A DNA stretch of 64,000 nt from Candidatus Lokiarchaeum ossiferum (GTDB lineage Archaea; Asgardarchaeota; Lokiarchaeia; Sigyniarchaeales; Promethearchaeaceae), in NCBI GenBank assembly GCA_025839675.1, contig CP104013.1:3105121-3169120 (forward strand). Direction: 5' to 3'. The number at the start of each line of letters is the position of its first letter. Position 1 is the first letter of the stretch. The notes below the pieces were generated by a model. The model saw nothing but the letters and a program-made list of their open reading frames with translations. It made no database searches and was not told where the DNA came from. A program made the position numbers and the translations under genes. Below, piece by piece: positions 3,140 to 63,217 of this stretch.

Positions 3140-6330
<3,191 letters not shown>

Positions 6331-39661: not shown

Positions 39662-40630
39662 ATGAAGTGTCAATATTGTTCAAAACCAGCGGTGTATCAT
39701 CGAAAAATTTCAAATGAAACGGTTTGTAAGGAACATTTTTGCACTACGATTGAAAACAAAATACGTAAAACTGTTAGAAAGTACAATATGTTCAGCCCAA
39801 CGGAAAAAATAGTTGTGGGCGTTTCTGGAGGAAAAGATTCTTTAGTTTTACTTTATAATGTAATGAAACTACAACAAAGATATCATCAATCGCCTCCCAT
39901 TGAAGCAATATTAATTGACGAAGGCATTGAGGGATATCGCTACGAAAGTACTGAAATTGCAAAACAAATGTGTAGAATTTGGAATGTAAAGCTTCATATT
40001 GTCAAATTTAAGGAAAATTTTGGCAAATCACTGGATGAAATAATTCCTAAATTACCCAATTTGAAGATAAATGCATGTACAATCTGTGGCACAGTAAGAA
40101 GACATCTTTTAAATAAAAAAGCAAAATCTCTACAAGCAGACAAACTTGCAATTGGACATAATCTGGATGATCAAACTGAAACATTCCTTCAAAATATTGT
40201 TCGAAATGATCTAAAAAGGATTTTACAGCATCCTCCGAATGGGAATATTACTGATCCAGATTCATTTTTTATTCCAAGAGTCAAACCCCTTATGCAAGTA
40301 CCAGAAGCGGAAATAAGTCGTTATTGTTACTACATGGATATACCTATTCAAACCACACCTTGTCCTTATGTTGAGAAATTTTTCATTCTCAGGAAAGAAA
40401 TTCAAAATTTCATTAATGCATTGGAAGATCAAAGTGCTGAAATTAAATACAACCTACTGAAAATGAATGAAAAAATTATTGATCATACAAAAATTGAAAT
40501 TGATCAAGATACTTCTTTTGATCCCCATGACCACCGTAATTTTTGTATCAAATGTAAAAGTCCATGCGGAGAAAAAAGGAAATTATGCTATTTTTGTGAA
40601 TTGAAAGAAAGTTTAAATTGCAACATCTAA
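39662..40630 (+). CDS. tRNA 2-thiolation PP-loop ATPase (NcsA/Ncs6/TtuA family)
   Basis: N-terminal zinc finger CQYC...CKEHFC, PP-loop VGVSGGKDS, central CTICG..RR, C-terminal CIKCKSPCG...CYFCE. Confidence 0.7.
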   Translation: MKCQYCSKPAVYHRKISNETVCKEHFCTTIENKIRKTVRKYNMFSPTEKIVVGVSGGKDSLVLLYNVMKLQQRYHQSPPIEAILIDEGIEGYRYESTEIAKQMCRIWNVKLHIVKFKENFGKSLDEIIPKLPNLKINACTICGTVRRHLLNKKAKSLQADKLAIGHNLDDQTETFLQNIVRNDLKRILQHPPNGNITDPDSFFIPRVKPLMQVPEAEISRYCYYMDIPIQTTPCPYVEKFFILRKEIQNFINALEDQSAEIKYNLLKMNEKIIDHTKIEIDQDTSFDPHDHRNFCIKCKSPCGEKRKLCYFCELKESLNCNI

Positions 40631-41181
40631 TCCGTAGGGATCGGAGCATTGTTATTATCTAAACCTAGGCCTTTCTTGCAAATTGGACAAGAATGACGCA
40701 TATTAATCCATTCTAAAAGATGATCTGAATGAGCTTTCGAATTACATAATGGACAAGCTAATACTTCATCAAATATCTTGATTCCTTTTCCGCAAACCGA
40801 ACATTTTAGAGATTCTTTGCTATTAATTTTGATTGTAGATTTCCCTGCATCAAGGCCAATATCTTGAGCGGTGTCTTCAGTAGGGATGATTAATCGAATT
40901 TCCCCATCCTTAGCACTTTTTTGAACACAAAACACTGTTCCTCGCATTCCATCAGTTCTATTCCCAATCCATTTTACGGTTCCCGCAAAAATTCCTTTCC
41001 CATCTTTTCCAACAGCTAGCTTCAAATTATTATTTTCCATAACGTATGTCTGTATTACTTTCGTTGCTTGTATGCCTTCTATTGTAGATGATATAGCTTG
41101 AATGAGATCCTTTGAACCTTTAAAAACTAAAGGTTTTATGTTCATCATACCTTGTTTAGATTTCTTCGCCATCGAGATCAA
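40627..41181 (-). CDS. Hypothetical protein with a C-terminal RING-like/treble-clef zinc finger
   Basis: CSVCGKGIKIFDEVLACPLCNSKAHSDHLLEWINMRHSCPICKK gives C-x2-C-x12-C-x2-C-x4-H-x2-H-x10-C-x2-C. The ...H..H...W.....CP.C part recalls RING-H2. Confidence 0.35.
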   Translation of the reverse strand: MISMAKKSKQGMMNIKPLVFKGSKDLIQAISSTIEGIQATKVIQTYVMENNNLKLAVGKDGKGIFAGTVKWIGNRTDGMRGTVFCVQKSAKDGEIRLIIPTEDTAQDIGLDAGKSTIKINSKESLKCSVCGKGIKIFDEVLACPLCNSKAHSDHLLEWINMRHSCPICKKGLGLDNNNAPIPTD

Positions 41182-47691: not shown

Positions 47692-48207
47692 TTGAAATTT
47701 TTTTTCATGAAATTAATATACTTTTACACTTGTTATTCTATCATGACCAATCCAGCAGTGGTACGCAAAATCAATCCTGATGAACTGGACCAATTATTGG
47801 AGCTCTACTCCTATTTTCCCTCAAACGTTGAACCCCTACCCTCTCCCGATATTATTCAAGTAACATGGAATTCCATCATGGTCAATCCACATCTTCATTA
47901 TTTCGTTGTTGAATATGATAATAAGCTCGTTTCAACTTGCAACTTAGCCATCATCCCGAATTTAACTCATGGAGTCCGACCATTGGGTCTTATAGAAAAT
48001 GTCGTCACCGCTAAAGCCTATGAAAATCATGGGTTTGGGCAAAAGGTGCTCCACTATGCCAAAAAATGGGCTAAAAAACATCGCTGCCATAAAGTGGTCT
48101 TACTCACTGGTTCCAAACAGCCGCGGACTTTAAAATTTTATGAAAAAGCAGGATTTCAACGAGGGATAAAAACAGGGTTTGTCTCCACATTAGATGATGT
48201 CGTGTAA
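47692..48207 (+). CDS. GNAT family N-acetyltransferase
   Basis: Motif A HGFGQKVLHYAKKWA. C-terminal KFYEKAGF. Confidence 0.8.
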   Translation: MKFFFMKLIYFYTCYSIMTNPAVVRKINPDELDQLLELYSYFPSNVEPLPSPDIIQVTWNSIMVNPHLHYFVVEYDNKLVSTCNLAIIPNLTHGVRPLGLIENVVTAKAYENHGFGQKVLHYAKKWAKKHRCHKVVLLTGSKQPRTLKFYEKAGFQRGIKTGFVSTLDDVV

Positions 48208-48228: not shown

Positions 48229-48570
48229 CTATTTTTGATCTCTCGATGAATAGATAATAAATCCTTTCTTGCGCAATATATCAAACCCTATTTTTTTATA
48301 CATTTTATGAGCTCGTTCATTGGCTGATCCTGACAACAGCATTACCTCGGTACACTTTTTATCCCAGGCAAAGTTCAAAGCATGATTCACTATGGCCTTC
48401 CCGTAACCGTTGCGACGATAATCTCTATGGATCACCACATGTTCAAGAAACCCATAACCATCCCCACCCCGAATGAAAGAGGGTGTTATGGTCAAAATAA
48501 AAGAAGCAATTATTTTCTTATCTTCTTCTCCAATGAAATAGGTAATACACGGGCTTTTCTGTACTTGATC
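48229..48570 (-). pseudogene. GNAT acetyltransferase, apparently disrupted (in-frame TGA within a region coding GNAT-like sequence)
   Basis: The annotated ORF starts at a TTG. In the same frame upstream, ...QENLEIWDQVQKSPCITYFIGEEDKKIIASFILTITPSF... continues GNAT-like sequence after a TGA stop, and no plausible Met is present. Confidence 0.4.
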
Positions 48571-48768
48571 CCAGATCTCTAAATTTTCTTGTCATTTAAT
48601 AGTGGGAAATTTTCTTGGCTTGCATAATGATGATAAAGCGGAATTAATTTTCCGATTTCATCCTCGTTGATTTTTCGTATCTCCACACCAACTTTCCTCT
48701 GGTATCACTAATGATATTAAATTAAGAAATAACCTTGTTTTCAAAGGGAATTAAAAGGAAAGAGAAAT

Positions 48769-48827
48769 GGCGCAGGTGTCAGGGATCGAACCTGCGACCT
48801 GCCGATTAACAGCCGACCGCTCTACCG
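48769..48827 (-). tRNA. Partial tRNA-Asn(GTT)-like gene: 3' portion only (D-stem 3' strand through acceptor 3' strand plus CCA). No 5' half found adjacent.
   Basis: The reverse complement reads GGTAGAGC-G-GTCGG-CTGTTAA-TCGGC-AGGTC-GCAGG-TTCGATC-CCTGA-CACCTGC-G-CCA. Upstream sequence lacks the acceptor 5' strand and D-stem. Confidence 0.5.
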
Positions 48828-48966
48828 AAGATGTACCATATGCACTCAAATACATAATTCTTAACACCAAAATTCCTAGAAAATTGCTTGGCGTAAGATT
48901 TCGAGTATAATCCTTCTCTATGATAAAGTTTTAATTAATCAAAAACTCAAAAAAAAAAGAAAAAAA

Positions 48967-51900
48967 TTAAACAATTTCAATCCAAAAAGCTTTTGTTCCA
49001 TGATAATCTATGGTGAAAGTCTTAGCAAATAAGTCGGTGTCCGAAGGAATAAATGTCTCAAATTTTAAAGAAAATGATTCTCCTTCTTCAAATTTTAATT
49101 GAGATTCAAATTTAAGAGTTATCGGCCCAACAGGAATTGTGGTCCAAGCACCATAGTTTCGATTATACTCATGATCATTCACCATTTCAATTTCCCAAGG
49201 ATTATTTGGTAATAACTCCTCAGTTATACCGATTTGTTCACGTTGAGAGTAATATTGAGATCTGGGATCAAAAGTAATCCCTGGATAATCTGTATTGAAT
49301 TCACCTAAGAATTTTCTGAAGCGAAGGATTTCTTTGCTAGGATCTTGCTCCAAAATAATCCTTTGATAAGCGTGAACAGAATTGGCATCTTCGTATTTGT
49401 ATCCTATTCCTTTAACGTTTCCCCAATATTCAATTCCAACTATCACATCTTCTTCAATATTAAGGATAGGATTTTTAACAGTGAATGAGACTTTTTCTAA
49501 TTCCCCTAATTCAACATCAATACCTGCACCTCCTGTATCTTTAGATCCAATAGAAACACCGGCTTTTAGTTCAATTTTTTTTGTAGAAAAAGATGTTAAA
49601 CCTGGTGTTATATCCCAATCCAAATTAATCCCATTTGGAGATGTTGGAATATAGATTCGATATTCTGGAATGACAATCTTTTCAGAAGATATCAAATCCA
49701 CCGAATTTTCAACTGCCTTTCCAAGTTTTATGTTATCCATATAGACTTGGAAGGAAGCATCATTAGTATTACTTGTATAGATTTCGAGTTCCGTTACATC
49801 CCACATTTCAGTGCTGGCACGAGGTTCATCAGCGATCTTCACACCATCAACCCAAGCTTGCCATTGATTATTATCCATATCCATTAGTAAATCGATTTTA
49901 TACATGCGATTTGATTCTGGCAAACAATAAATATCATCAGGACCAATATAACTGTTGCCATATACATCATTAGTGACCGAAAGAACGTTTTCTGGAAAAT
50001 CACCATAAGTTTGGTGCAAACTTAATCTAATATAATCTTCGTAGGAAACAATATCATTATCTTTGAAAATGATTGTAAAATCTGGAATGCCAGTGTATCC
50101 GATTTCAAATGTGAAAAGATATTTTCCATAATTATCCATTTCAATATCTTTACTAATTTTCACTTTTTTATTATTTAAAATTCCTCCAGTACTGGAATCT
50201 ACAAATTCTATAACCCTTCCATAATAATCAGTTATTGGAGAAATTATAACATTAACAGAACAATCTGTTCCTTCAGAAATAGTATAACCAGAAGGATTTG
50301 TTCCAATACCTGCATTCTCATAATTATCCGTAACAGGGTATCCAGCATCCTTTGGATTAGAAAAATACAACTTGATCTCGTCATCATCAGTAAACCCATC
50401 ACTATCAGTATCTTCTAATCCAGGATTCGTAGTAAGTTCATAATGCTCATATCCGTCATTATATGTATCACCATCAGAATCTGGATTTGTAGGATTAAGG
50501 TTCACATAACCTTCATATTCATAGATGCCAGTAGCTTCAGAGCTTAAATCATCTCGTACAAAATCTAATTCTTGCTTATCAGTCAATCCATCAAAATCTG
50601 AATCAATTTCTGAGGGATTAGAATAATATGTTTTGTAGAATTTTGGTCGAGAATTTGGATCTGAATAAATTAAATCATATCCAGTTACTTCTTCGCTATC
50701 AGTTAAACCATCTTCATCTTTATCTGCTAAAGCATTCAAAGGATTTGTATTGTATACTAAAACTTCATCTCCATCAGATATACCATCATTATCTGAATCA
50801 GAATCACTTGGAGATAAATCATCTAACCTAGAATAATGAGCTTCATAGTTTCCATCCCATATATTAAACCAATTATAAGAATATTCTTCATAATTGGACA
50901 AATCATCATTATCAGTATCCCTATCCACATTTGGAAGATGGAAATAGCTTCTGTATCCTTCAGAAGATACTCCTAACCCATCAATTCCAAAATTCATAGC
51001 ATCATATCCACTATGTGTGTACATCCCAAGCGAGTTGATGTAGGAATAAGAAAGAACTGGAATATCACTTCCCACTTTTTGACCATCAATCCAAGCATCA
51101 ACTTGATTATTGCTGAAATCTAATTCAATGTGAACTTGATACCATTGATTCAATTGATAATCAAGAATTGGAATCCAAGTTCCTGTATCTCGTCTAATTC
51201 CAAGATGACCACCCCAGATTGGCATGTAAAATGGTTGTCCTGATCCGTGAAAAGTTAGATATGCATATCCATTTGATGAAGGCGATGGAGAATACCACCA
51301 GAAGTCAATAGAATCACCATCCTGACTCATAGTATTAAAACTGACAGAAGCGGTTGGACTTGTTGTTGGTGTGTTTCCTTGGGCAAGATATAATGCATTG
51401 GGATGATTTTCAATATTTTTAATTGTTGCAGTTGCTGTTCCAGGATTATAAGTCCACTCTTGCCAATTTGTGGTTCCAATTATTTTGAAGCTTTCAATAT
51501 CGGGATGATTTGAAAATGCTTCATACCCTTGGGAGGAAACTCCTAAACTATCAAATCCAAAATTCATTTTTTGTTCAGTACCCTGTGTATACATGAAAAT
51601 ATTGTCAATTTCAGAATATGGAAGCACTGGAATATCTGATAGAGTTTTTATTCCATTTGCCCATAAATCCACTTCATTATTTGTGAAGTCAAATTCAACG
51701 TGCATATGATACCAGGTTGACCATTCAAAATTGAAATATTCCCATGCACTTGTATCCTTTCTTATTCCAAAATGATTTGACCATATTGGGAAGTAAAAGG
51801 GCCGTGAACTCCCATCTTGCAAGCAAATATATGCATAACCAATCGTATCGGAAGAAGGAGAATACCACCAAAAATCAATATAATCATTATCTTGATTCAC

Positions 51901-53325
51901 CGCAGGAAAAGACACAGCTACAGTTGGACTAGTTATTGAATTAACATGATCTTCTTGGGAAAGATAGAGAGAAGTCGGATGATCTCCAATATTCGTAATA
52001 GTAGCAACTTCCGTCCCAGATTGAATATTAAAATCATTCCATTCAATACTATTTTCAACAAAGAAGCTATCAATCGTATAATGATTATTATAAGCTATAT
52101 ACCCTTCAGAAGACACACCCAGAGCATCAAAGCCAAAATTGGTATCACCAAGATCACTGTGGATATACATATTGATGGAATTAATGAAGGAGTAATCTAG
52201 GACTGAAACATCAACAAGTGATTTTTCCCCATCAACCCATAAATCCACTTCATTATTCGTAAAATCAAATTCAACATGCACATGATACCACGTTGAATAA
52301 TCAAAATTGAAGTAGTTACTCCAGCTTCCAGAACTATCGCGAATTCCAAAGTGATTAGCCCATATAGGAAAGTAGAAGGGTTGTCCTGTATCTTGTTTAA
52401 ATGTAATATATGCGTACCCATCGGAACCAACTGAAGGCGAAAACCACCAAAAGTCAAGATAATCTTGATCGTCATTCAATGTATTGAAATTAATGGATGC
52501 TGATGGATTAGTGGTTACTGGATCTTCTTGAGATAAATAGAGTGCATTATAGCGGCCATCAATATCAGTCAATACCGCTAATTCTGAACCTTGAGATATA
52601 CTCCAGCGGTTCCAATCGATGCACTCACTTTGATCATATCCTATCCCACTACCATCCATAGGATTTAGAGGATTTAAATTATTGATATATTCCCATCCAT
52701 CAGGCATTCCATCTTGATCTGTATCCATATTGTTGGGATCTGTTCCCAAAGTATTCGTTTCGAGCCAATCATTTAACCCATCATTATCAGTATCATCAAC
52801 AAGATAAACGTAAATCGACTCAATTCTTTTTCCTGTTAAGTAAAAGCATTCTTCCCCATCAGCATATTCGGGAGAATCACCTAAGGATTGAATGTGTCCA
52901 CGATATCGGATTTGATATTTATACTCAGGACAGTTTACTAGTCGAATTGCAAATTTTTCAATCTGTAGTGCCTGTCCTCTTGTTCCAGCATAATTTCCAT
53001 CACTTATCCACTGTGTCCACCCATTTCCTTGAATATATACTTTGTATTCAATGTCACAATCAAATGTATTGTCTACAATACTTAATTGAATCCCTTCTAA
53101 TCTTTTTGCAATACCTTTATGACCAACCCATTGGTGGTCAGTTCCAACAATATCCCCATAGGATTGTTGATGAACCAAAACGGATAAAATTTGGCTACTA
53201 ACGTTTGGTACGTTCAACTCCCTTTGAGATTCTTCTTGATCCTCTGTAAATCCAAATTCTCCAGAATTGGATAGAGTTAGGCTAAGAAGAAGTAAAAATG
53301 CAATATATTTTTGTTGATTTTTCAT
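48967..53325 (-). CDS. Giant secreted or surface protein (1452 aa): signal peptide, thrombospondin type-3-like Ca-binding repeats, three tandem ~190-aa lectin/ConA-like repeats, C-terminal beta-rich domain
   Basis: N-terminus MKNQQKYIAFLLLLSLTLS is signal-like. Repeats DFWW(F/Y)SPS...GYAY...PFYFPIW.NHFGIR...WYH.H.EFDF.NNEVD occur three times (about nt 50913 to 52617). Asp-rich DxDxDG motifs are present (DTDNDGLNDWLE, DSDNDGISDGDE, DSDGDTYNDGYE, DTDSDGFTDDDE). Confidence 0.8.
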   Translation of the reverse strand: MKNQQKYIAFLLLLSLTLSNSGEFGFTEDQEESQRELNVPNVSSQILSVLVHQQSYGDIVGTDHQWVGHKGIAKRLEGIQLSIVDNTFDCDIEYKVYIQGNGWTQWISDGNYAGTRGQALQIEKFAIRLVNCPEYKYQIRYRGHIQSLGDSPEYADGEECFYLTGKRIESIYVYLVDDTDNDGLNDWLETNTLGTDPNNMDTDQDGMPDGWEYINNLNPLNPMDGSGIGYDQSECIDWNRWSISQGSELAVLTDIDGRYNALYLSQEDPVTTNPSASINFNTLNDDQDYLDFWWFSPSVGSDGYAYITFKQDTGQPFYFPIWANHFGIRDSSGSWSNYFNFDYSTWYHVHVEFDFTNNEVDLWVDGEKSLVDVSVLDYSFINSINMYIHSDLGDTNFGFDALGVSSEGYIAYNNHYTIDSFFVENSIEWNDFNIQSGTEVATITNIGDHPTSLYLSQEDHVNSITSPTVAVSFPAVNQDNDYIDFWWYSPSSDTIGYAYICLQDGSSRPFYFPIWSNHFGIRKDTSAWEYFNFEWSTWYHMHVEFDFTNNEVDLWANGIKTLSDIPVLPYSEIDNIFMYTQGTEQKMNFGFDSLGVSSQGYEAFSNHPDIESFKIIGTTNWQEWTYNPGTATATIKNIENHPNALYLAQGNTPTTSPTASVSFNTMSQDGDSIDFWWYSPSPSSNGYAYLTFHGSGQPFYMPIWGGHLGIRRDTGTWIPILDYQLNQWYQVHIELDFSNNQVDAWIDGQKVGSDIPVLSYSYINSLGMYTHSGYDAMNFGIDGLGVSSEGYRSYFHLPNVDRDTDNDDLSNYEEYSYNWFNIWDGNYEAHYSRLDDLSPSDSDSDNDGISDGDEVLVYNTNPLNALADKDEDGLTDSEEVTGYDLIYSDPNSRPKFYKTYYSNPSEIDSDFDGLTDKQELDFVRDDLSSEATGIYEYEGYVNLNPTNPDSDGDTYNDGYEHYELTTNPGLEDTDSDGFTDDDEIKLYFSNPKDAGYPVTDNYENAGIGTNPSGYTISEGTDCSVNVIISPITDYYGRVIEFVDSSTGGILNNKKVKISKDIEMDNYGKYLFTFEIGYTGIPDFTIIFKDNDIVSYEDYIRLSLHQTYGDFPENVLSVTNDVYGNSYIGPDDIYCLPESNRMYKIDLLMDMDNNQWQAWVDGVKIADEPRASTEMWDVTELEIYTSNTNDASFQVYMDNIKLGKAVENSVDLISSEKIVIPEYRIYIPTSPNGINLDWDITPGLTSFSTKKIELKAGVSIGSKDTGGAGIDVELGELEKVSFTVKNPILNIEEDVIVGIEYWGNVKGIGYKYEDANSVHAYQRIILEQDPSKEILRFRKFLGEFNTDYPGITFDPRSQYYSQREQIGITEELLPNNPWEIEMVNDHEYNRNYGAWTTIPVGPITLKFESQLKFEEGESFSLKFETFIPSDTDLFAKTFTIDYHGTKAFWIEIV

Positions 53326-53794: not shown

Positions 53795-56014
53795 TTACTT
53801 TAACTTCAGTTTAATATTGTCAATTAATTTTTCTTTGATAAATCCCTCTTCTCGAATTAATCGAAAATATTGCCCTTCCTCAAATTTAAACCCAAATTGA
53901 TCCCCACACTCCATGAAAACTTTGTGGCGCAATACCTTCCCAGGAAAATGTTTCCACTCTTCACCACTGGCAACTATTTCCTGTATTCGGTCTGAATATT
54001 TTGCAAACTGTTTGAGATAATACGGTTTATCTACAGATATATGACATTTTTCGCTGGTTAGTATATTCACAGTATTAAGAAAATTATCCAGCAATTCATT
54101 TTCCGATGTTGTACCACCCTTGATTCCCTCGATTATCGGTTTTATTAACTCTTTTTTTTCATCCTCCGAAAATACCTTTGGAAACTCCTCGAAAAAGAAT
54201 TTCAACTTCTTTGTCATCTTCATTGTCTCATCGATAGAAGTTTTGATTAGATTAGACACCTTTTCAAGGGTAATCTCTTCCTCTGAATCTGGATTGGATC
54301 TTTCAATAAGTTCTTTGAGTAGCTCAGGATTGAGGTATAAATTTTCGATTTCCCGCACTGGGAGTAGTACAATTTTATCTCGGATTTCTTTTGCCTTCTT
54401 ATTGCGAATTTCCTTATTACCTTCATCATTATCCAAAATAATGAGAAATTTGAAGTTTTTATTGGTAAAATTCTCTATCAACTGTGCATTTGCCCAATAA
54501 TGTAAATCTCGTTTGCCTCCTAACGGTTGTAGTATGATTCTTTGCTCTTCTAAAATTTCCGGAATTGCTTGTTTGAAAAACTCTACATCATCCTTTCCTT
54601 CCACCAATATCATCCCATTATTCATGAGATAATCTGAAGGTTTGATGCCTAAATCTTCAAAAACTTGTGGTATATTTTCTGCTTTTTCATTATATACATG
54701 AGTTATTTTATCACTTCGTTTTACCCTATGAATGCTCCATCCCTTTTTCATACTATCCAAGAAATATGGTGAATGAGTAGTAATTAAAACTTGAAATCGG
54801 CTCAAATTTTCCTCGATTATTGATAGGAGTATTTTTTGCAAATCAGGATGTATAAAAAGTTCCGGTTCTTCAATTAACAGCAATCCATTTTCTTTTGTTT
54901 CTAATATTGCAACTAAAATTGTTACCAATTGCTGAATCCCCTTCCCCAATTTGTCAAAAGTAAGTTTGTACTCTAAATCTTCTTCTAATACATAAGGAAT
55001 TGTCAAGGGATATTTCTCAATAGGAATGTTTGTTTCTGGGTAATAATCAATATTATAAAGAGAATAATCTGGTTGATGTAAAAAATTTTGATTGATCTCT
55101 TTAATATTAGGATACAATTTGCTCAGATAGTGGTTGAGTTTTTCTAATTTTTCTTTCTCATTTGTGTTATAGCTAAGAATTTTTAGTGGGACATTTTCTC
55201 CATCATATTCAAAATGAAAAGGCTTTGTAGAAGCCTCCACCTTATAGAATGGTAGGAATGAACGATCTTCAACTACCATATTCATCTTGGAATAGAAATC
55301 TATAATCGGTGATAAGAAAAAGTGCAATAAAGGATTGCTATGAACTCGTTTATCAAAAATGGATCTATTATTCAGAAGTTGATTGCCAGGATTCGGAAAT
55401 CCAGTATTGAAAATCGAATTTGGAAAAAAATGCCATTCAAATGAATTACTATTAGCAATGAGTTTTTTCCTTGGTTTGCTAAGTTCCATGTTTCTAATAG
55501 AATATTCATGTCCTACTGAAGTCCTATCCACAAAATTATAGGAAATCAGTCCATTTTTGAAAGTAACTCTTCTAATAAAAATTTCATAACTTGACCCAGG
55601 AGCTACTTCAAATTCATATACAATATTTTCAAATGCCTCCTCTAATAATATCGATTCCTCAGGGTTGAATCGATTATCTTTGAAAAATTTAAATAATTTT
55701 GGGTTTTTCAAGTAGTCTTTTGAATGTTCCCTAAATAGCCTTGATGCTTGATCACGAAAATATTCCAAAATCTTTGATCTATCAAATTTGAATTCTAAAT
55801 TTATCTTTACCGGATGCTTCTGGGAATTGAACTTAATCAATTTTTTATCTAAAAGCTTCCCCGACCTTATACTCTTTAAAATTTTAAATAAATTGCTTTT
55901 CCCTGAATTATTAGGTCCAATTATAACGCCTAAATCCCCAATATTCTCGAATACTTGGTGATCGAAACTTAGCAGATTGAATATTTCTATTCGATGCAAC
56001 CGCGAAATTGTCAT
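53795..56014 (-). CDS. OLD-family nuclease: N-terminal ABC-type ATPase plus C-terminal TOPRIM domain (class 1 OLD / Gabija GajA-like)
   Basis: Walker A GPNNSGKS, Walker B LLLIEEPELFIHP, H-loop ITTHSPYF. TOPRIM MILVEGKDDVEFF and ILDNDEGNKE (DxD). Confidence 0.8.
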   Translation of the reverse strand: MTISRLHRIEIFNLLSFDHQVFENIGDLGVIIGPNNSGKSNLFKILKSIRSGKLLDKKLIKFNSQKHPVKINLEFKFDRSKILEYFRDQASRLFREHSKDYLKNPKLFKFFKDNRFNPEESILLEEAFENIVYEFEVAPGSSYEIFIRRVTFKNGLISYNFVDRTSVGHEYSIRNMELSKPRKKLIANSNSFEWHFFPNSIFNTGFPNPGNQLLNNRSIFDKRVHSNPLLHFFLSPIIDFYSKMNMVVEDRSFLPFYKVEASTKPFHFEYDGENVPLKILSYNTNEKEKLEKLNHYLSKLYPNIKEINQNFLHQPDYSLYNIDYYPETNIPIEKYPLTIPYVLEEDLEYKLTFDKLGKGIQQLVTILVAILETKENGLLLIEEPELFIHPDLQKILLSIIEENLSRFQVLITTHSPYFLDSMKKGWSIHRVKRSDKITHVYNEKAENIPQVFEDLGIKPSDYLMNNGMILVEGKDDVEFFKQAIPEILEEQRIILQPLGGKRDLHYWANAQLIENFTNKNFKFLIILDNDEGNKEIRNKKAKEIRDKIVLLPVREIENLYLNPELLKELIERSNPDSEEEITLEKVSNLIKTSIDETMKMTKKLKFFFEEFPKVFSEDEKKELIKPIIEGIKGGTTSENELLDNFLNTVNILTSEKCHISVDKPYYLKQFAKYSDRIQEIVASGEEWKHFPGKVLRHKVFMECGDQFGFKFEEGQYFRLIREEGFIKEKLIDNIKLKLK

Positions 56015-56114
56015 ATATTATTAGTTTTGGACAAAGGTGTAGTTAAATTTTTAGATTAAAACTCAATTTCCTTTAAACTTTGATAAGGAAAAAAAAAACA
56101 CGTATATAATTAAA

Positions 56115-56420
56115 TCAATATCCATATTTTTGCATGATATCAGTAATATCTCTTCCATAGTATTTCACGTAGGCCACAATTCGCCCATAGGTATCAATCG
56201 CCACTTGTTTAATGGTAACCAAAGATCCTACAGGTATTAAAGAGGATAATATTCTTTTTGCTTTGAAATAACCAGATTCTCCCTTTTCAGGTGTGTTAAT
56301 ATTAGCAATTCGAACATATTTATTACCCGTTATAATGAAAGTATCTCCATCTACAATCGCAGCTACTTTTTTTCGATATATATTTGATGTTGGGTATTTC
56401 TTCGAAATTGAAGATGTCAT
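56115..56420 (-). CDS. Staphylococcal-nuclease (SNase/thermonuclease)-like protein, short form
   Basis: VDGDTF...VRIANINTPE...YGRIVAYV follows the SNase OB-fold motifs. Overlaps the upstream gene by 4 nt (ATGA). Confidence 0.6.
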   Translation of the reverse strand: MTSSISKKYPTSNIYRKKVAAIVDGDTFIITGNKYVRIANINTPEKGESGYFKAKRILSSLIPVGSLVTIKQVAIDTYGRIVAYVKYYGRDITDIMQKYGY

Positions 56421-57049
56421 ATTTTATCACCTCCATCCAAACTCCTAAGATATGTTTTAAATTGATTTTCTGAAAGCGCAAAGCAGTTATTAGAATTGTG
56501 ATACTTGTTAATATCTAGCAACCGCTCGTCAGTATAAAAGGAACCACTGCAAATGGCATAAAACTGCCCAGATTCATTTGATTCCGAATTTTCAAACAAG
56601 CGAACAATATTTTGCATCCTACTTGATTGAGAACCTCCACTCCCATCTGAATGAAATCGAACAAAATAGGACCTCTTTCCTTTAATTTTACATGAAAGAT
56701 GAATTGAACTTGATTTTACATTCAATCGCTTTTTTGTGATCTTTCCGTCTGTAATGTAGAGTCTTGGAGTTCTCCAATGAGTGATCAAATTTGAAATAAA
56801 AGTCTGGTTGGTCAGATATTTCGTAAATTCCCTCAGATAAGTATTTCCTCGCTTCAAATTTAGGTCCTTACTTACGCATATTGCAGCGAATAATTTATCT
56901 TCAAGAAATTTCTGTTCTATATCCTTAATTGGAATTCCCGTACGGTCATGTAACCGGATAAGCTGTTTTACCTTATGGCCCTTCATAATTCTCTTCCGAA
57001 TTATGGAGATTTGCGTGGTGACGTCCTTTCTAATCTGAAATTGGTACAT
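56417..57049 (-). CDS. Hypothetical protein co-transcribed with the SNase-like and OLD nuclease genes
   Basis: 210-aa basic protein with no recognisable motif. Shows translational coupling (4-nt overlap) to the SNase-like gene. Confidence 0.4.
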   Translation of the reverse strand: MYQFQIRKDVTTQISIIRKRIMKGHKVKQLIRLHDRTGIPIKDIEQKFLEDKLFAAICVSKDLNLKRGNTYLREFTKYLTNQTFISNLITHWRTPRLYITDGKITKKRLNVKSSSIHLSCKIKGKRSYFVRFHSDGSGGSQSSRMQNIVRLFENSESNESGQFYAICSGSFYTDERLLDINKYHNSNNCFALSENQFKTYLRSLDGGDKI

Positions 57050-57288
57050 TAATTAATTACTTCCTTTACTGAGTGGTGGTTTGTGTGTGACAGAATCAAT
57101 CCTTCGAGTAAGCTATTTGATCAATCTACGTTGACTTACGCGCGCGATCGTTACCCGTTACAATAACGAAGGTCACACGCGTATTTAAATCAAGGTATTT
57201 ATAGAGAAGTACCCTTCCTCAACCGACAAAAATTCAAAAATTTCACTGTTGGATAGAAAAACACGCAAGAATTCCAATATTTCATAAT

Positions 57289-58161
57289 GTGAATATTTTT
57301 AATATTTCACTCGTACTGTTAATATTGTTAGTGAAAAAAAAAATGAATTCCTTAGATTTAGTTGAAGAACGAAATATTTTAGTCGTTCCAATCGGTTTAG
57401 AAAATGAGCGGGTTGTTAAAAGCTGCCAAATTTACCCTGTGAACGTCATTTATCTCTTGAAGAGTAACTTTGAATCTAATTCTGATCATAAGGAAAAAAA
57501 CTCATCCCAATGGGGAATAGAACAATACTCAAAAACAATTGCATCTGAAGTCATTAAGAAATTTGAAAATACTTTTTTTGAAATTCAACCAAAAAATTGC
57601 CATCTCGGCTCCCTCCCGAGCACAATTTCTATTTTAAATGACATCTATGAAATTGAACAGAAAAAGGGAAAATTGAACAAAATTTACATCAATATCTCCA
57701 CCGCATCCAAATTATTCGCAATTGGGGCCTATATTTTTGCCTCTCAATTCCCCGATATATGCAAACTTTTCTATTTGGCCACAAATAATTATCTTCTCTT
57801 GGAACACTTGAAATCGGAAAAAGGGGATTTAGAAAAATTAAAAACGGAATTTAGAAAATTTGGTCTAACAAAAGGACCTTTCAAAGTTGTGAACATCCCA
57901 ATTCTGAAATCGGACCCTTTTTCAACCGATGAAAAACGATTGATCAATTATTTAGCCCAATTTGACCACATCAATTCGATAAAAGAAATATTGGAAAATC
58001 TCAAAAAGGATACCAACGCTAAAGAAAGAATGAATCTTCGCAGATCCCTTGAAAAACTCGAGAAAAACAATTTGCTGATACTAAAAAAAAGTGGAAAATC
58101 GGTTCAGGTTCTTATATCTGATGAATTGAAACAGCTCGCTGGCTCCTTTATACTGGAGTAG
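57289..58161 (+). CDS. Putative CARF-like (Rossmann) N-terminal domain plus C-terminal winged-helix regulator (Csa3-like architecture)
   Basis: ILVVPIGLENERVV (beta1 plus Gly loop) and NISTASK (a CARF dvTgGtK-like motif). C-terminal INYLAQFDHINSIKEILENL...NNLLILKKSGKSVQV resembles a wHTH. Confidence 0.3.
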   Translation: MNIFNISLVLLILLVKKKMNSLDLVEERNILVVPIGLENERVVKSCQIYPVNVIYLLKSNFESNSDHKEKNSSQWGIEQYSKTIASEVIKKFENTFFEIQPKNCHLGSLPSTISILNDIYEIEQKKGKLNKIYINISTASKLFAIGAYIFASQFPDICKLFYLATNNYLLLEHLKSEKGDLEKLKTEFRKFGLTKGPFKVVNIPILKSDPFSTDEKRLINYLAQFDHINSIKEILENLKKDTNAKERMNLRRSLEKLEKNNLLILKKSGKSVQVLISDELKQLAGSFILE

Positions 58162-58200
58162 CTTATATTCCGCTGTAATTCTTATACGATTCATTCAATT

Positions 58201-59241
58201 TTAAAATAATATCGCAATCACAATCGCCAAAATGGACAGGACCAACTCAATGCGCCATTTCGAAGTTTCTTTCCTATATTTCCGTTTCTCCATTGCATTT
58301 TCAATTCCATCAATGAAATTCTTCAACTCTTCTACCACTTGATCTGGTTCTTGGTTCTGTTTCGAATTGAAATGATATATATACCATGTTTTAACCTTCC
58401 CAAAAATCGCTTTCCATTCGTGTAGCTTTTCCAGTGAAAATATTTCATCATGTAAATCAATCGATATTTCATTCAGCTCTTCCTTATCAAACCCGGTCCC
58501 ATAATATAACTCAATCCATTTTCCATTATTTTGCTTGATTGTTTCAACTATCTCTTCGGAAGGTATCTTTTGTGTAAAAATTTGTCGATATTCTTCAACA
58601 AGATCATTTTCTTTTTCATAAACCCTTAATAAGATAAGATTCTTCGCATTCTCCAAGTTATTAAAGCAAAAAGTGAAATAATTCCTAAAAACTGCACAGA
58701 TATTCACTAGTACGAATACTATAAGACTTATATAAACAAATAGTAGATAATGGTCTTGAGTTTTGATTACAGCATAGTATCCAAAGGCTATAGTGCCTAT
58801 ACTGATAAAAATACTGAAAAGCGTTGAAAAAAAGAGAATATTATGATTCTTATCCTTCCTTAAAAAACTGGTTGAATATTTCAAAATCTGTATTTCCCTT
58901 TCTATTGTTTGTTTTGTATCCTTCGTATTCTTCTTGTCGAAATAATCTAAAAAATCTGAGAGAAATTCATAATTTTTTTCAGTATCCTCGACATTATATG
59001 GTAGTTCTTTCTTTGAAATCCAATAAGAAATTAAAATCCTAAGAAAAATTATAATGACGAATGTCCAAATTATTAATCCTTGCTCGTTTTCATCGAAAGA
59101 TCCTAATATTAAGATCATGCAAAAAATAATTCCATTAATTATTCTGGTTCCTGGAATTTCTGACTTAAATGTGGAGACTTTTTCTTCATATTCCCCGAGA
59201 ATTTTCAAAATATCATTTTTATTTATCTTTTTTTGATTCAT
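58201..59241 (-). CDS. Multi-pass membrane protein (about 5 TM) with a cytoplasmic acidic domain; hypothetical
   Basis: Hydrophobic helices at about aa 33 to 53, 57 to 77, 131 to 151, 157 to 177 and 322 to 344. No catalytic motif recognised. Confidence 0.45.
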   Translation of the reverse strand: MNQKKINKNDILKILGEYEEKVSTFKSEIPGTRIINGIIFCMILILGSFDENEQGLIIWTFVIIIFLRILISYWISKKELPYNVEDTEKNYEFLSDFLDYFDKKNTKDTKQTIEREIQILKYSTSFLRKDKNHNILFFSTLFSIFISIGTIAFGYYAVIKTQDHYLLFVYISLIVFVLVNICAVFRNYFTFCFNNLENAKNLILLRVYEKENDLVEEYRQIFTQKIPSEEIVETIKQNNGKWIELYYGTGFDKEELNEISIDLHDEIFSLEKLHEWKAIFGKVKTWYIYHFNSKQNQEPDQVVEELKNFIDGIENAMEKRKYRKETSKWRIELVLSILAIVIAILF

Positions 59242-59737
59242 CTTATTAAATTAATTGGATTATTATGGATTTTAAGCCATTTATTAGGACTTTAATACAT
59301 TCCATCATTTCTCGATTTATATATGGATAATCAAATTTTTTGAAATCCATTAGAACCGAATGTGTGAGATTTTTTTTATTTTAAATGATTAAAATAGTTC
59401 TAATCAGTAATTTTAGAAAAAAGTCATGGAAACGACCAATTGACAATCAATCGCAAAGTAAATCAATCATGAATTTTAAGAAGAGGCTAAAAGCGCAAAT
59501 GGAAGACTAATAGACTTATAATTAAATGATAACCAATTTTTTTTTTTATTTTCGATTATTAAATGATTCTACTTATTTTTTTTAATCAAGATGGAAAGCA
59601 TGTGGGTGCACAATTTTTTAATCCAAATTTTTTTTTACAAATCTATAATTTTCATTAGTAAAATTGTGTCTATTAGTTTGATTTGAAACATAGGACTGAT
59701 TGATTTAAAATTTGATTCAAATACTTGGGTTTTTGAT

Positions 59738-60421
59738 ATGAAAAAAAAAATATTTGCATATTATCGGATTTCAACTGAGAAACAAAAAAAAAAGAATACT
59801 CAGGAAAATCAGAAAATTGCAATTTATAATTTTGTTGAAGGTTTAGACGTTGAAATTGTGAATGAATTTGAAGATTTGGGTATTTCAGGGGCAGATAATG
59901 ACCGCCCACAATTCAATCTAATGCTTTCTAAATTGAATGAAGTAGAAGGATTAGTAATCTATGATTTAGACCGATTAACGAGAGATTTTGAAATGGGAGT
60001 AAACTTAATGTTTATGTTGAAAAATTCAAAAAAATCTTTGTATATTGCTCGAACCAAAGATATCAAAGATTTTTCAGATGATTCCGAGCAATTAATGACC
60101 ATTATCAAATCATGGGTTTCTGCACTTGAACGAAAGAAAATTAAAGAAAGACAAAAAATAGGAATTCAACGATATAAAGAAACAAAAGGTCGTTGGGGTA
60201 GAAAGAAATCCTTTGGAAAATATAAAAATCCAGAACAATTTTGGAAAAACTATGATATCTATAGAGATTTGGGTATTTCCAAGACATCCTGTGCAAAATT
60301 ATTAGGTGTCTCTCGTTCAACGATGAATAGACGGATAGAAGAACGTGAAATAAATAAGTCGAAAATCAAAACTACCCCAATTAATAACAAAATCAAAGAA
60401 TGGAGCGAACCAAAACTTTAA
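59738..60421 (+). CDS. Small serine recombinase (resolvase/invertase type): catalytic domain plus C-terminal HTH
   Basis: IFAYYRISTEKQ (catalytic Ser motif), DRLTRD, C-terminal HTH ISKTSCAKLLGVSRSTMNRRIE. Confidence 0.8.
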   Translation: MKKKIFAYYRISTEKQKKKNTQENQKIAIYNFVEGLDVEIVNEFEDLGISGADNDRPQFNLMLSKLNEVEGLVIYDLDRLTRDFEMGVNLMFMLKNSKKSLYIARTKDIKDFSDDSEQLMTIIKSWVSALERKKIKERQKIGIQRYKETKGRWGRKKSFGKYKNPEQFWKNYDIYRDLGISKTSCAKLLGVSRSTMNRRIEEREINKSKIKTTPINNKIKEWSEPKL

Positions 60422-60688
60422 AGGAAGTTTTTTTTATAAATTACTCTAATAATCGCTATATCGAAGAATCGAAGAAAAATTGAAATGTTAACGGTAAATT
60501 GAGCTTCCAGAGTGGCTTTTTCTAATTTCTGTCGGCTAATTTTTAAAGTAAAAGGATGAATAACACCTAAGCCCACCGGCCAAGGTGTTATAGAAGAAAG
60601 CCCACCGGCCATCTCCATGTTATTAATCTTCAAGAAAGTATTTAAAGATCACCATACATGTTTTTTATAGGTTTATTTAAAATCAAAA

Positions 60689-61477
60689 ATGATTAGAATG
60701 ATTATTGCATATCTTGACGAAACTGGAGATCCTGTCTATCGAAGGGGTGGCCCTAAATGGTTTGGTATAACTGCCGCAATCTTTCATGATTCAAAATTAC
60801 TTGATGGAATAAATGTGATGAAGTCATTCAATCAAAGTAAATCCGAAGAATATGACTGTGATTTTGAAATACATGCAAGGGAATTTTCCAGCTCGAAAAA
60901 AGAACCTTATAATGCAATGAAAGTTGAAGAAAAAATAGAATTATTTACAGAATGCTTACATACTGTCAAAAATACTGGTGCTTCAATTTGCGGTGTGTTT
61001 GTTGATAAAGTTAAGCATAGTTATTGGCATGGTAAATATGATTTTTTAAAAAATGTAGTTATGAACCTATTTGAAAGGATAGGTAGATATCAGATTGCAA
61101 ATTATCCTAATGAAGCCATTCTGATATTATATGACCAACCTTCTGCCCATTTAAGACCAATTATTAAACAATATTTCAAAGAAAGATTAGAAGTCGGTTC
61201 AAGATATGTCAAACCTGCGTTTTTCTTGAAAGAAATCTTATATGTTGAATCTAAATTTCATCAACCTATTCAAATAGCAGATTTAACAGGATATATTGTA
61301 AGAAGATTGATAGAAAAACGTATAGATGGTACATTTTCCAGTTTTCTAAAGTATGTTGATGACTTGTATAAAATAATTCGACCAATGTTAGATTTCAATC
61401 CAACAACAAAAGAAATATATGGGGCAGGAATTAAAATTATTGAAAGTAATGACAGGAAATATTATGGACGTTTCTGA
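60689..61477 (+). CDS. DUF3800-family protein
   Basis: Hallmark N-terminal IAYLDETGD and C-terminal PIQIADLTGYIV motifs of DUF3800. Confidence 0.7.
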   Translation: MIRMIIAYLDETGDPVYRRGGPKWFGITAAIFHDSKLLDGINVMKSFNQSKSEEYDCDFEIHAREFSSSKKEPYNAMKVEEKIELFTECLHTVKNTGASICGVFVDKVKHSYWHGKYDFLKNVVMNLFERIGRYQIANYPNEAILILYDQPSAHLRPIIKQYFKERLEVGSRYVKPAFFLKEILYVESKFHQPIQIADLTGYIVRRLIEKRIDGTFSSFLKYVDDLYKIIRPMLDFNPTTKEIYGAGIKIIESNDRKYYGRF

Positions 61478-61513
61478 ACAGAGTGTTTGCTTAACCAAAT
61501 ATGAAAATACCTT

Positions 61514-61870
61514 TTATGGATCCAAAAATTTTCTTTTTCGGTTATTTGCCGTTATTTTCTTATAATTCTCAGTAGTTTCTCTTACGTTATCTATTCCAGT
61601 ATCAATTAAGATTTGTTCAAATTTGCTACTTAAATTTTTGAATTTTATTGCATTATCAGCATAAGAATCAATATATTCATCAGGTTTTTTTTCAGGTTCT
61701 TTATTAAGGAATTTTAATAAGGAATATGATTTTGCCCCATGTTCAGCAGACAATTGGGCTTTGTGGTCGAGTTCTTCATATTTATCATAAGTAGCCGCAA
61801 AAATTGCATATAATTCAATTAAATCTAAAGGAATATTTAAAATTGGCATTTCATCTTCTTCAAAAGACAT
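61514..61870 (-). CDS. Hypothetical acidic protein
   Basis: 118-aa ORF convergent with the DUF3800 gene; no motif recognised. Confidence 0.35.
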   Translation of the reverse strand: MSFEEDEMPILNIPLDLIELYAIFAATYDKYEELDHKAQLSAEHGAKSYSLLKFLNKEPEKKPDEYIDSYADNAIKFKNLSSKFEQILIDTGIDNVRETTENYKKITANNRKRKFLDP

Positions 61871-62036
61871 AATTGCATTAAAAAAATAACGGATAAAAAG
61901 TTTAGTTCTTTTTTTCGGTTCCGATTATCTGGTATACGGTTCCGAACCCTTTAGAAATAGTTAATTTGTCATCCTTCTTCAGAAAATATCTACTAATGTC
62001 GGTTCCGAATTGATTTTGCTAATAAATGGGACCGAA

Positions 62037-62063
62037 ATTAGCGAGATTAGCGAGATTAGCGAG
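62037..62063. repeat. Perfect tandem repeat 3 x ATTAGCGAG (9-mer), next to four copies of a GG(T/A)(T)CCGA(A)TT motif at 61916 to 62036
   Basis: Read directly: attagcgag attagcgag attagcgag. The upstream tcggttccgaatt motif occurs twice, plus ggttccgattat and gggaccgaaatt. Confidence 0.8.
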
Positions 62064-63052: not shown

Positions 63053-63083
63053 GAAAGAGGAAATGGCACAGGTGACATGGACC
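63053..63083. repeat. Imperfect direct-repeat copy of the tRNA-Asn 3' end plus flank (partner at 48758 to 48793); candidate att-like boundary
   Basis: GAAAGAGGAAATGGCACAGGTGACATGGACC versus GAAAGAG-AAATGGCGCAGGTGTCAGGGATCGAACC at 48758; about 26 of 29 aligned positions match, same orientation. Confidence 0.45.
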
Positions 63084-63217
63084 TAACTCGCTGATTACAC
63101 TATATCTATACGTAGACGTTTCATTTTCAAAAATAATTTGTAGGACGAATCCATCATTTCATGCATTGACTCCCTTAATCAAAACTATAAATACACATCC
63201 TAACAATTACCTATTAG

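What the first reader, a model, noticed from the sequence alone, without database searches (positions are those of the whole stretch)
48967..53325. 1452-aa secreted protein with three tandem lectin-like repeats and thrombospondin-type Ca-binding repeats
There is a signal peptide and Asp-rich DxDxDG calcium-binding motifs on both sides of three highly similar ~190-aa repeats (DFWWxSPS...PFYFPIW.NHFGIR...WYHxHxEFDF.NNEVD). No membrane anchor is present. This looks like a large adhesin or S-layer-associated carbohydrate-binding protein. The near-identical tandem repeats are recombination-prone and unusual for this genome.
Basis: seen in the sequence. Interest (0 to 1): 0.55.

Follow-up and report, generated by a model that had tools for sequence, protein, structure and literature searches.

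The report
Secreted multi-lectin-fold protein of Lokiarchaeum
This gene of the cultured Asgard archaeon Lokiarchaeum ossiferum encodes a large secreted, calcium-repeat-rich protein with four lectin-fold domains and a bacterial-type cell-surface-binding module, most likely a sugar-binding adhesin, and it is made of known parts apart from an orphan C-terminal domain and a near-total lack of N-glycosylation sites.

Summary

There is an N-terminal ChW triplet, a Gram-positive cell-surface-binding module. There is a fourth, divergent lectin-fold domain. There is a 247-aa C-terminal domain with no detectable relatives. And the protein holds 1 N-x-S/T sequon where 16 are expected.

The best reading is a secreted, Ca2+-stiffened, multivalent glycan-binding (adhesin-like) protein. 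This is inferred from folds and domain associations, not shown. S-layer association is unsupported. It is a new member of a known kind and of moderate interest.

The parts
48967..53325 (-). Whole gene: 1452-aa ORF plus TAA stop. It is identical to NEF87_002675 of Ca. Lokiarchaeum ossiferum.
53263..53325 (-). Signal peptide, aa 1-21 (MKNQQK / YIAFLLLLSLTL / SNS, then G22). There is no lipobox and no class III motif.
   Evidence: Read from the sequence. It is the only hydrophobic segment. No signal-peptide predictor was available.
53203..53205 (-). Asn41, the only N-x-S/T sequon in the protein (NVS). It lies in the acidic linker before the ChW module.
52798..53190 (-). ChW (clostridial hydrophobic W) triplet, aa 46-176. 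Only the middle unit keeps the canonical G-W, and the flanking units are degenerate.
   Evidence: Pfam PF07538 scores 66.7 bits on the isolated region and 39.7 bits on the whole protein.
52621..52797 (-). First TSP3-type calcium-binding block, aa 177-235, with 2 units (D178, D201).
   Evidence: Most database hits map to this block and the second TSP3 block.
52051..52620 (-). LamG/ConA-like repeat R1, aa 236-425.
51475..52050 (-). LamG/ConA-like repeat R2, aa 426-617. This is the modelled copy.
50926..51474 (-). LamG/ConA-like repeat R3, aa 618-800.
   Evidence: The Pfam PF22585 best stretch is aa 717-755.
50329..50925 (-). Second TSP3-type calcium-binding block, aa 801-999, with 6 units (803, 843, 868, 908, 949, 972). 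It is 27% Asp+Glu and has no Cys.
49711..50328 (-). Fourth, divergent LamG/ConA-like domain R4, aa 1000-1205.
   Evidence: It is the fourth stretch matched by the repeat profile in the protein itself. hhalign against the family alignment gives probability 95.9%, E 5.8e-9 over 163 columns. phmmer to other family members reaches 5e-10.
48970..49710 (-). Orphan C-terminal domain, aa 1206-1452. It looks beta-rich, and its fold and function are undetermined.
   Evidence: No Pfam match and no PHROG match. PDB sequence search gives only E about 0.03. No match in phages or plasmids, in metagenome or viral contigs, or among collected proteins. It is not a LamG copy. The AF2 single-sequence model has pLDDT 33.
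48940..48966 (-). T-rich tract (TTTTTTTCTTTTTTTTTTGAGTTTTTG) immediately after the stop codon, a likely archaeal terminator.
   Evidence: Read from the sequence. Function is inferred.

Best explanation
The gene encodes a secreted, strongly acidic, modular extracellular protein of Ca. Lokiarchaeum ossiferum. After signal-peptide cleavage it consists of a ChW triplet, two TSP3 calcium-binding units, three tandem ConA/LamG-fold domains, six more TSP3 units, a fourth divergent ConA/LamG-fold domain and an orphan 247-aa C-terminal domain.

The most likely mechanism is multivalent glycan binding. The four lectin-fold domains would each contribute a low-affinity carbohydrate site. The Ca2+-loaded TSP3 blocks would act as rigid acidic spacers that hold these domains apart. 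The ChW triplet or the orphan C-terminal domain would hold the protein non-covalently on a cell surface, either its own or that of a partner organism. That makes it an adhesin-like or matrix-binding protein.

What is shown: the domain composition, the fold of the repeat, secretion-type features, purifying selection on the repeats, and specific avoidance of N-glycosylation sequons. What is inferred: carbohydrate as the ligand, Ca2+ binding, surface retention, and a role in cell-cell or cell-matrix contact.
For: The ORF is intact and identical to NEF87_002675, and the identical gene is found in assemblies of three sequencing runs. It has signal-peptide features and no other hydrophobic segment, with 234 Asp+Glu against 78 Lys+Arg.

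Pfam hits above cut-off are ChW, TSP3_bac and Sialidase-like_CBM, and there are eight TSP3-like DxDxDGxxDxxE units.

An exhaustive profile search finds only distant relatives of the repeat, best E 7e-17. These carry PF22585 or Laminin_G_3. They come from Promethearchaeota MAGs and from bacterial proteins named 'sugar-binding protein', 'glycosyl hydrolase' and 'beta-glucuronidase', where the domain sits beside CBM9 or NPCBM-associated domains. That is the usual setting for a carbohydrate-binding module.

dN/dS between repeats is 0.22-0.40, so all three copies are maintained. An unrelated protein, P0127, has the same layout of signal peptide, three LamG-fold domains and TSP3 repeats.

ChW modules mediate non-covalent cell-surface attachment in Gram-positive bacteria and are thought to act as triplets (PMC6700490, PMC5817068). 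L. ossiferum has no ordered S-layer but has many unidentified protruding surface proteins (PMC9834061).

Against: A single repeat scanned alone falls below the Pfam cut-off, at 12.9 bits. No membrane anchor or known archaeal sorting signal is present, so surface retention is conjecture. The ChW ligand is unknown even in bacteria (PMC5817068), and archaea lack peptidoglycan.

The C-terminal 17% of the protein is completely unexplained and could carry the real activity. Expression is not demonstrated, and the locus tag does not appear in the searchable literature.
Confidence: 0.55

Rival explanations
1. The ConA-fold repeats are catalytic (polysaccharide lyase or glycanase modules) rather than binding modules, and the protein is a secreted polysaccharide-degrading enzyme.
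Confidence: 0.1
2. It is a released toxin or effector. The lectin-fold domains and the ChW triplet would target it to another cell's surface, as in the receptor-binding half of clostridial neurotoxins, and the orphan C-terminal domain would be the active module, for example a pore former.
Against: No toxin family is detected in Pfam, NCBIfam, PADLOC-adjacent searches or PHROGs. The only PDB sequence similarity is to staphylococcal superantigen-like proteins at E about 0.03, to one set of near-identical sequences over 82 residues, which is not significant. Amphipathic hairpins occur in any beta-sandwich. No immunity-like gene is evident next to it.
Confidence: 0.08
3. It is a structural coat or matrix component that acts through protein-protein contacts, with LamG-type domains as protein-binding modules and no specific glycan ligand.
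For: From general knowledge, LamG/ConA-like domains often bind proteins, as in the neurexin and laminin LG domains and in NTNH binding to BoNT. L. ossiferum shows abundant unidentified surface densities, some of which connect protrusions (PMC9834061). No sugar-binding residues were identified here.
Against: The domain's bacterial relatives sit in glycoside hydrolases and sugar-binding proteins. No ortholog exists in other Asgard genomes or metagenomes, which is unexpected for a core structural coat protein.
Confidence: 0.2
4. It is a decaying or non-functional gene, a pseudogene remnant or a spurious ORF.
For: It is a singleton with no ortholog. It lies at the edge of a variable island next to a frameshifted GNAT copy.
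Against: A 4.36-kb uninterrupted ORF in AT-rich DNA is very unlikely to arise by chance. dN/dS is 0.22-0.40 between repeats. Sequon avoidance is highly specific and implies selection on the exported protein. One repeat gives a confident fold prediction.
Confidence: 0.02

Closest known systems
Sialidase-like CBM (Pfam PF22585) and Laminin_G_3 (PF13385) domains of the ConA-like lectin/glucanase superfamily, for example the accessory beta-sandwich of Bacteroides thetaiotaomicron BT_1020 (PDB 5MQR/5MQS) and of the Akkermansia muciniphila sialidase Am1547 (8HLS)
   Different: Sequence identity is only 14-18%. An isolated repeat falls below the Pfam cut-off. Here the domain is not attached to any enzyme but occurs as 3+1 copies between TSP3 blocks. 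As far as I know, no ligand is established for the matched accessory domains.
Bacterial TSP3-repeat surface proteins (PF18884), including the many Asgard and marine-bacterial TSP3 proteins recovered and the Myxococcus adhesin CglD
   Same: They share DxDxDGxxDxxE calcium-binding units in runs, and they are secreted modular proteins. Most of the 132 non-self hits at E <= 0.001 share this part, and none reaches the core of the repeats, most of R4 or the C-terminal domain.
   Different: The CglD model scores 40.9 bits against a cut-off of 400 and covers only the TSP3 region, so this is not a CglD. The partner domains differ from every hit.
Thrombospondin signature domain (type 3 calcium-binding 'wire' packed against a C-terminal L-lectin-like sandwich)
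   Same: A run of type-3-like Ca-binding repeats (aa 801-999) is followed directly by a ConA-like beta-sandwich (R4, aa 1000-1205). This is the same order of module types; the comparison rests on general knowledge of thrombospondin structure.
   Different: No TSP_C domain is detected at E <= 1. The TSP3 block has no cysteines, whereas eukaryotic type 3 repeats are disulfide-bonded. There are no EGF or coiled-coil modules. This is a resemblance in layout, not membership.
ChW (PF07538) cell-surface-binding modules of Clostridia, lactococci and phage endolysins
   Same: The HMM match is clearly above cut-off. There are three units, as in the proposed functional triplets (PMC5817068). It shows 34-38% identity to Clostridia ChW arrays.
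   Different: The host is an archaeon without peptidoglycan. Two of the three units have lost the conserved G-W. The module is N-terminal and is fused to lectin-fold domains rather than to a hydrolase.
Receptor-binding HCN domains of clostridial neurotoxins and NTNH
   Different: The similarity is at fold level only, with 12-16% identity. There is no translocation or protease domain, and no HCC trefoil.

Membership tests
ConA-like lectin/glucanase superfamily (PF22585 Sialidase-like_CBM / LamG-like) | Significant match to a family profile | tested here: met
   The whole protein scores 38.2 bits against a cut-off of 27, in two stretches. R2 alone scores only 12.9 bits. However, the repeat profile retrieves proteins that carry PF22585 or PF13385.
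ConA-like lectin/glucanase superfamily (PF22585 Sialidase-like_CBM / LamG-like) | Two-sheet beta-sandwich jelly-roll fold | tested here: met
ConA-like lectin/glucanase superfamily (PF22585 Sialidase-like_CBM / LamG-like) | Carbohydrate binding, i.e. a functional lectin or CBM | not testable with these tools
   This needs glycan arrays or ITC. The only support is by association: relatives occur in glycoside hydrolases and sugar-binding proteins.
Bacterial TSP3 repeat (PF18884) | Profile match above cut-off and the DxDxDGxxDxxE motif | tested here: met
   46.7 bits against a cut-off of 25. Eight motif instances, at aa 178, 201, 803, 843, 868, 908, 949 and 972.
Bacterial TSP3 repeat (PF18884) | Ca2+ binding | not testable with these tools
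   Inferred from motif conservation only.
ChW repeat (PF07538) | Profile match above cut-off | tested here: met
   39.7 bits on the whole protein and 66.7 bits on the isolated region, against a cut-off of 22.
ChW repeat (PF07538) | Conserved G-W dipeptide in each unit, with units grouped in threes | tested here: inconclusive
   Three units align, but only unit b (aa 89-135) keeps G-W. Pfam calls two stretches.
ChW repeat (PF07538) | Non-covalent binding to a cell-wall component | not testable with these tools
   The ligand is unknown even in bacteria (PMC5817068).
Thrombospondin signature domain | TSP_C lectin-like domain and disulfide-bonded type 3 repeats | tested here: not met
   There is no TSP_C hit at E <= 1 and no cysteines in aa 801-999.
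CglD gliding-motility adhesin (NF033765) | Equivalog score at or above the cut-off over the full length | tested here: not met
   40.9 bits against a cut-off of 400, covering only aa 795-967.
Archaeal S-layer or archaeosortase-anchored surface protein | C-terminal transmembrane or sorting signal (PGF-CTERM type), or a known S-layer domain, typically with many sequons | tested here: not met
   There is no C-terminal hydrophobic segment and no such NCBIfam or Pfam hit. One sequon is present against 16 expected. The organism lacks an ordered S-layer (PMC9834061).
Sec-type secreted protein | N-terminal signal peptide with n, h and c regions | tested here: met
   Judged by inspection and hydropathy only. 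No dedicated predictor was available, and cleavage after S21 is inferred.
Aerolysin/ETX-MTX2-type pore-forming toxin (considered for aa 1206-1452) | Profile match or aerolysin-like fold | tested here: inconclusive
   No Pfam hit at E <= 10. The AF2 model is unusable at pLDDT 33, so the fold could not be tested.

The most novel reading that the evidence does not exclude
The protein is one of the unidentified 'complex surface proteins' seen by cryo-ET on Lokiarchaeum. In this reading it is a lectin-type cell-cell contact factor that binds surface glycans of syntrophic partners, or the archaeon's own N-glycans. It would use a bacterial-derived ChW triplet and four lectin-fold domains. It would have been purged of N-glycosylation sequons so that it does not become a ligand for itself. 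The orphan C-terminal domain would then be a new surface-attachment module.
Probability: 0.12. Interest if true: 0.7.

Novelty: new member of a known kind. Interest (0 to 1): 0.4.

Why it matters
Asgard archaea are the closest known relatives of eukaryotes. Models of eukaryogenesis depend on intimate cell-cell contacts made by their protrusions and by an unusual envelope that lacks an S-layer. None of the surface proteins of Lokiarchaeum has been identified at the molecular level (PMC9834061).

This gene is a concrete, testable candidate: a large secreted protein with four lectin-fold domains, calcium-binding spacers and a bacterial-type surface-binding module. Its near-total lack of N-glycosylation sites is unusual for an archaeal extracellular protein and suggests that glycan recognition matters for its function.

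If it is only another modular sugar-binding protein, it still adds a divergent LamG-like subfamily shared by Asgard MAGs and Paenibacillus glycosidases, and an orphan domain worth a structure.

Tried and rejected
Word-indexed homolog searches with the repeat alignment and with the C-terminal domain returned nothing, not even the parent protein. I treat these negatives as uninformative.

For the C-terminal part, scans of genome, metagenome and viral contigs found no tblastn-confirmed relative. The genome scan did not recover the source genome either, so that collection apparently lacks it.

Single-sequence AF2 of aa 1206-1452 failed at pLDDT 33, so no fold search was attempted on it. The afdb50 library was unavailable. 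PHROGs gave no hit, and tblastn against phages and plasmids gave none. hhalign shows the C-terminal domain is not a fifth LamG copy, at 0.5% probability.

I rejected the PDB similarity to staphylococcal superantigen-like exotoxins. It has E about 0.03 and matches one set of near-identical sequences, so it is not evidence. I rejected P0122, the second-best profile hit, as spurious because it is an Ig V-set protein. The GH16-like 'ExDxxE' idea for the WYHVHVEFDF strand was considered and dropped, because that strand is the conserved core motif of the fold.

I could not confirm the tRNA-like element downstream as a tRNA. ARAGORN at default settings, Rfam at E <= 1, and ARAGORN at 90% of its threshold all fail to call it. 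The locus tag was not found in the literature or in one supplement set.
Full report
**Observation.** The window is archaeal: it carries an archaeal LSU rRNA at 3137-6321 on the minus strand and has about 33% G+C. An uninterrupted 1452-aa ORF occupies exactly 48967..53325 on the minus strand. It is 100% identical to the hypothetical protein NEF87_002675 of Candidatus Lokiarchaeum ossiferum, encoded on a 6.04-Mb contig. The identical gene is also found on contigs assembled from three sequencing runs.

The N-terminus (MKNQQK-YIAFLLLLSLTL-SNS|G) has the layout of a Sec signal peptide. It is the only hydrophobic stretch: the best 19-residue Kyte-Doolittle mean is 1.4, and nothing comparable lies at the C-terminus. 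With the fuller DxDxDGxxDxxE pattern there are eight units, two at aa 178 and 201 and six between 803 and 972. Pfam recognises them as bacterial TSP3 repeats, at 46.7 bits against a cut-off of 25.

The three repeats are aa 236-425, 426-617 and 618-800, with pairwise E-values of 1e-64 to 1e-74.

They are 48-54% identical in protein and 61-63% identical in codon-aligned DNA. dS is 1.06-1.79, dN/dS is 0.22-0.40, and the longest shared exact words are 22, 14 and 11 nt. Tandem Repeats Finder reports no array. These are ancient internal duplications kept under purifying selection. They are not near-identical, recombination-prone copies.

**What the repeats are.** A profile of the three copies was searched exhaustively against 1.84 billion representative proteins. 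It found only distant relatives: the best has E 7e-17, ten reach 1e-10, and 92 reach 1e-3. It also matched four stretches in the protein itself. The fourth is aa 1000-1205, confirmed by hhalign against the family alignment (95.9% probability, E 5.8e-9, 163 columns) and by phmmer to other members (down to 5e-10).

The relatives carry Pfam Sialidase-like_CBM (PF22585) and Laminin_G_3 domains. They share the signature (E/D)FWW...WYH.x.(E/D)FD...(Y/V)D.W(I/V)DG...DA(L/I)G(Y/V)S. Those with names are hypothetical proteins of Promethearchaeota/Lokiarchaeota MAGs, plus Paenibacillus proteins called 'sugar-binding protein' and 'glycosyl hydrolase' and a metagenomic 'beta-glucuronidase'. In some relatives the domain sits next to CBM9 or NPCBM-associated modules.

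**Other parts.** The N-terminal region, aa 46-176, is a ChW (clostridial hydrophobic W) module. It scores 66.7 bits when scanned alone. It has three units, of which only the middle one keeps the G-W dipeptide, and its best matches are Clostridia proteins at 34-38% identity. ChW modules mediate non-covalent cell-surface attachment in Gram-positive bacteria and phage endolysins and are proposed to act in triplets. Their ligand is unknown (PMC6700490, PMC5817068).

The last 247 residues, aa 1206-1452, have no detectable relatives. There is no Pfam family even at E 10 and no PHROG. There is no significant PDB sequence match, the best being E about 0.03 to one group of staphylococcal superantigen-like proteins, which I do not count. 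There is no phage or plasmid match, no metagenome or viral contig match, and no match among the 216 proteins collected here. It is not another LamG copy. The single-sequence AlphaFold model is unusable at pLDDT 33. The fold and role of this domain remain open, and this is the main gap in the analysis.

Most of the other 132 whole-protein hits at E <= 0.001 overlap only the TSP3 blocks. A few match only the ChW region, and none reaches the core of the repeats, most of R4 or the C-terminal domain. The architecture as a whole is therefore a singleton in a 5.8-billion-sequence database.

**An unexpected feature.** The protein contains a single N-x-S/T sequon (N41, NVS) where 16.1 are expected from its composition. 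None of 2000-3000 shuffles had fewer than 5, z is -4.3, and Poisson P is about 2e-6. The bias is specific. The reversed motif, N-S/T, N-x-x-S/T, D-x-S/T, Q-x-S/T, N-x-A/G, N-x-D/E and N-x-hydrophobic are all at expectation. The four other N-x-S/T triplets are all N-P-S/T, which is not a sequon.

Seven of the eight segments have zero sequons against 1.0-2.8 expected each; the one real sequon is in the N-terminal segment. Even if R1-R3 are counted once, about 11 are expected.

Other ORFs in the window are at expectation, with 100 observed against 86 expected. The TSP3 proteins have a median O/E of 1.3, and the LamG-family relatives have a median of 1.2. Only two relatives are similarly depleted. 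One is P0127, which shares the layout of signal peptide, three LamG-fold domains and TSP3 repeats. The other is P0133, from a Promethearchaeota MAG.

N-glycosylation at N-x-S/T has been demonstrated in the related Asgard archaeon Promethearchaeum syntrophicum (PMC11284389). The simplest reading is that this protein is exposed to the glycosylation machinery and that glycosylating it is selected against. Why is unknown. Avoidance of self-recognition by a glycan-binding protein is one hypothesis.

**Context.** On the downstream side, at lower coordinates, lie housekeeping genes: PCMT, ThiI, PAC2, PfkB kinase, DinB and GNAT. On the upstream side lie an OLD/AriA-AriB-like ATPase-Toprim protein, a truncated SNase-like ORF, a CARF protein, a serine recombinase, DUF3800 and a PycTM-like effector. 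The gene therefore sits at the edge of a defence and mobile-type island, which fits its lack of orthologs.

A T-rich tract follows the stop codon. G+C is unremarkable at 0.33-0.36. Two Logan contigs of about 4.8 kb cover only this gene plus 140-280 nt on each side and end within 10 nt of each other downstream. This would fit transcript-derived assemblies, but the library type could not be checked.

**Mechanism.** The best-supported model is a secreted, Ca2+-stiffened, multivalent glycan-binding protein. Four lectin-fold domains are separated by TSP3 spacers, and surface attachment, if any, goes through the ChW triplet or the orphan C-terminal domain. The composition, the fold, the secretion features and the selection are shown. 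The ligand class, Ca2+ binding and localisation are inferred.

There are three main rivals. The repeats could be catalytic, as in the ConA-fold lyases and glucanases. The protein could be a targeted toxin or effector whose active part is the orphan domain. Or it could be a protein-binding coat component. None is excluded, and each is less well supported (see the rival explanations). S-layer association is not supported: L. ossiferum lacks an ordered S-layer and instead shows numerous unidentified surface proteins (PMC9834061).

**Novelty and verdict.** All recognisable modules belong to known families, and modular TSP3/LamG surface proteins are common in Asgard MAGs and marine bacteria. I therefore file it as a new member of a known kind. 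Three points go beyond routine. A bacterial ChW triplet occurs in an Asgard archaeon. The 247-aa C-terminal domain has no detectable relatives. And the avoidance of sequons is specific and strong. Interest is moderate. The protein is a reasonable experimental candidate for the unidentified surface structures of Lokiarchaeum, but nothing here demonstrates that role.

Noticed in passing
window 48967-53325 (-), whole protein; lone sequon at 53203-53205: There is strong and specific depletion of N-glycosylation sequons: 1 N-x-S/T against 16 expected (z -4.3, Poisson P about 2e-6). Control motifs are at expectation, and the four other N-x-S/T triplets are all N-P-S/T. Two of 91 relatives (P0127, P0133) are similarly depleted.
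   Followed up: partly
window 37522-39648 (+): This 708-aa M50-family peptidase ORF shows the opposite bias, with 19 sequons against 7 expected. It may be a heavily N-glycosylated membrane protein.
   Followed up: no
window 48768-48826 (-), about 140 nt downstream of the stop codon: This is a tRNA-like 3' segment with a GTT (Asn) anticodon arm, a GGTTCGATCC T-arm, an acceptor 3' strand and an encoded CCA, but no matching 5' acceptor or D-stem. ARAGORN at default settings and Rfam do not call it, and a relaxed ARAGORN run gives only a poor intron-containing call. It is a single copy in the window. It could be an integration scar at the island border or an unconventional tRNA.
   Followed up: partly
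window about 48230-48700 (-): This is a frameshifted second GNAT acetyltransferase copy, convergent with the intact GNAT at 47692-48207. tblastn gives two HSPs in different frames at 33-45% identity, with the break in a T/A run near 48590. The sequence is identical in an independent Logan assembly (L001), so a single-assembly error is unlikely.
   Followed up: partly
window 53795-64000: There is a defence and mobile-type gene run directly upstream: an OLD/AriA-AriB-like (PARIS-type) ATPase-Toprim fusion at 53795-56014, a truncated SNase-like ORF at 56115-56420, a CARF protein at 57289-58161, a serine recombinase at 59738-60421, DUF3800 at 60689-61477, and a PycTM-like (Pycsar effector) protein at 63218-63748. 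No Pycsar cyclase was identified among the ORFs scanned upstream of it.
   Followed up: partly
window 3137-6321 (-): The archaeal 23S rRNA gene is 3185 nt against a model length of 2987, with no SSU rRNA or tRNA nearby in the 64-kb window. The extra length may correspond to the expansion segments reported for L. ossiferum ribosomes (PMC9834061).
   Followed up: no
L002 1-31 and L003 1-29 (Logan contigs SRR32148623_3139 and SRR32148622_1971): Two ~4.8 kb contigs carry only this gene plus short flanks and end within 10 nt of each other at window 48688 and 48697. Their first ~30 nt do not match the window. They look like transcript-derived or graph-edge contigs, and the library type is unknown.
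   Followed up: partly
window 40627-41181 (-): This small ORF has a C-terminal RING-finger (zf-RING_2) hit at E 1e-4, just below the Pfam cut-off. It could be a eukaryote-signature-type protein typical of Asgard genomes.
   Followed up: no
tool behaviour: Word-indexed protein searches with sub-sequences of the protein, and the genome-contig scan, failed to recover the parent protein or genome. Negatives from those calls should not be read as absence.
   Followed up: yes
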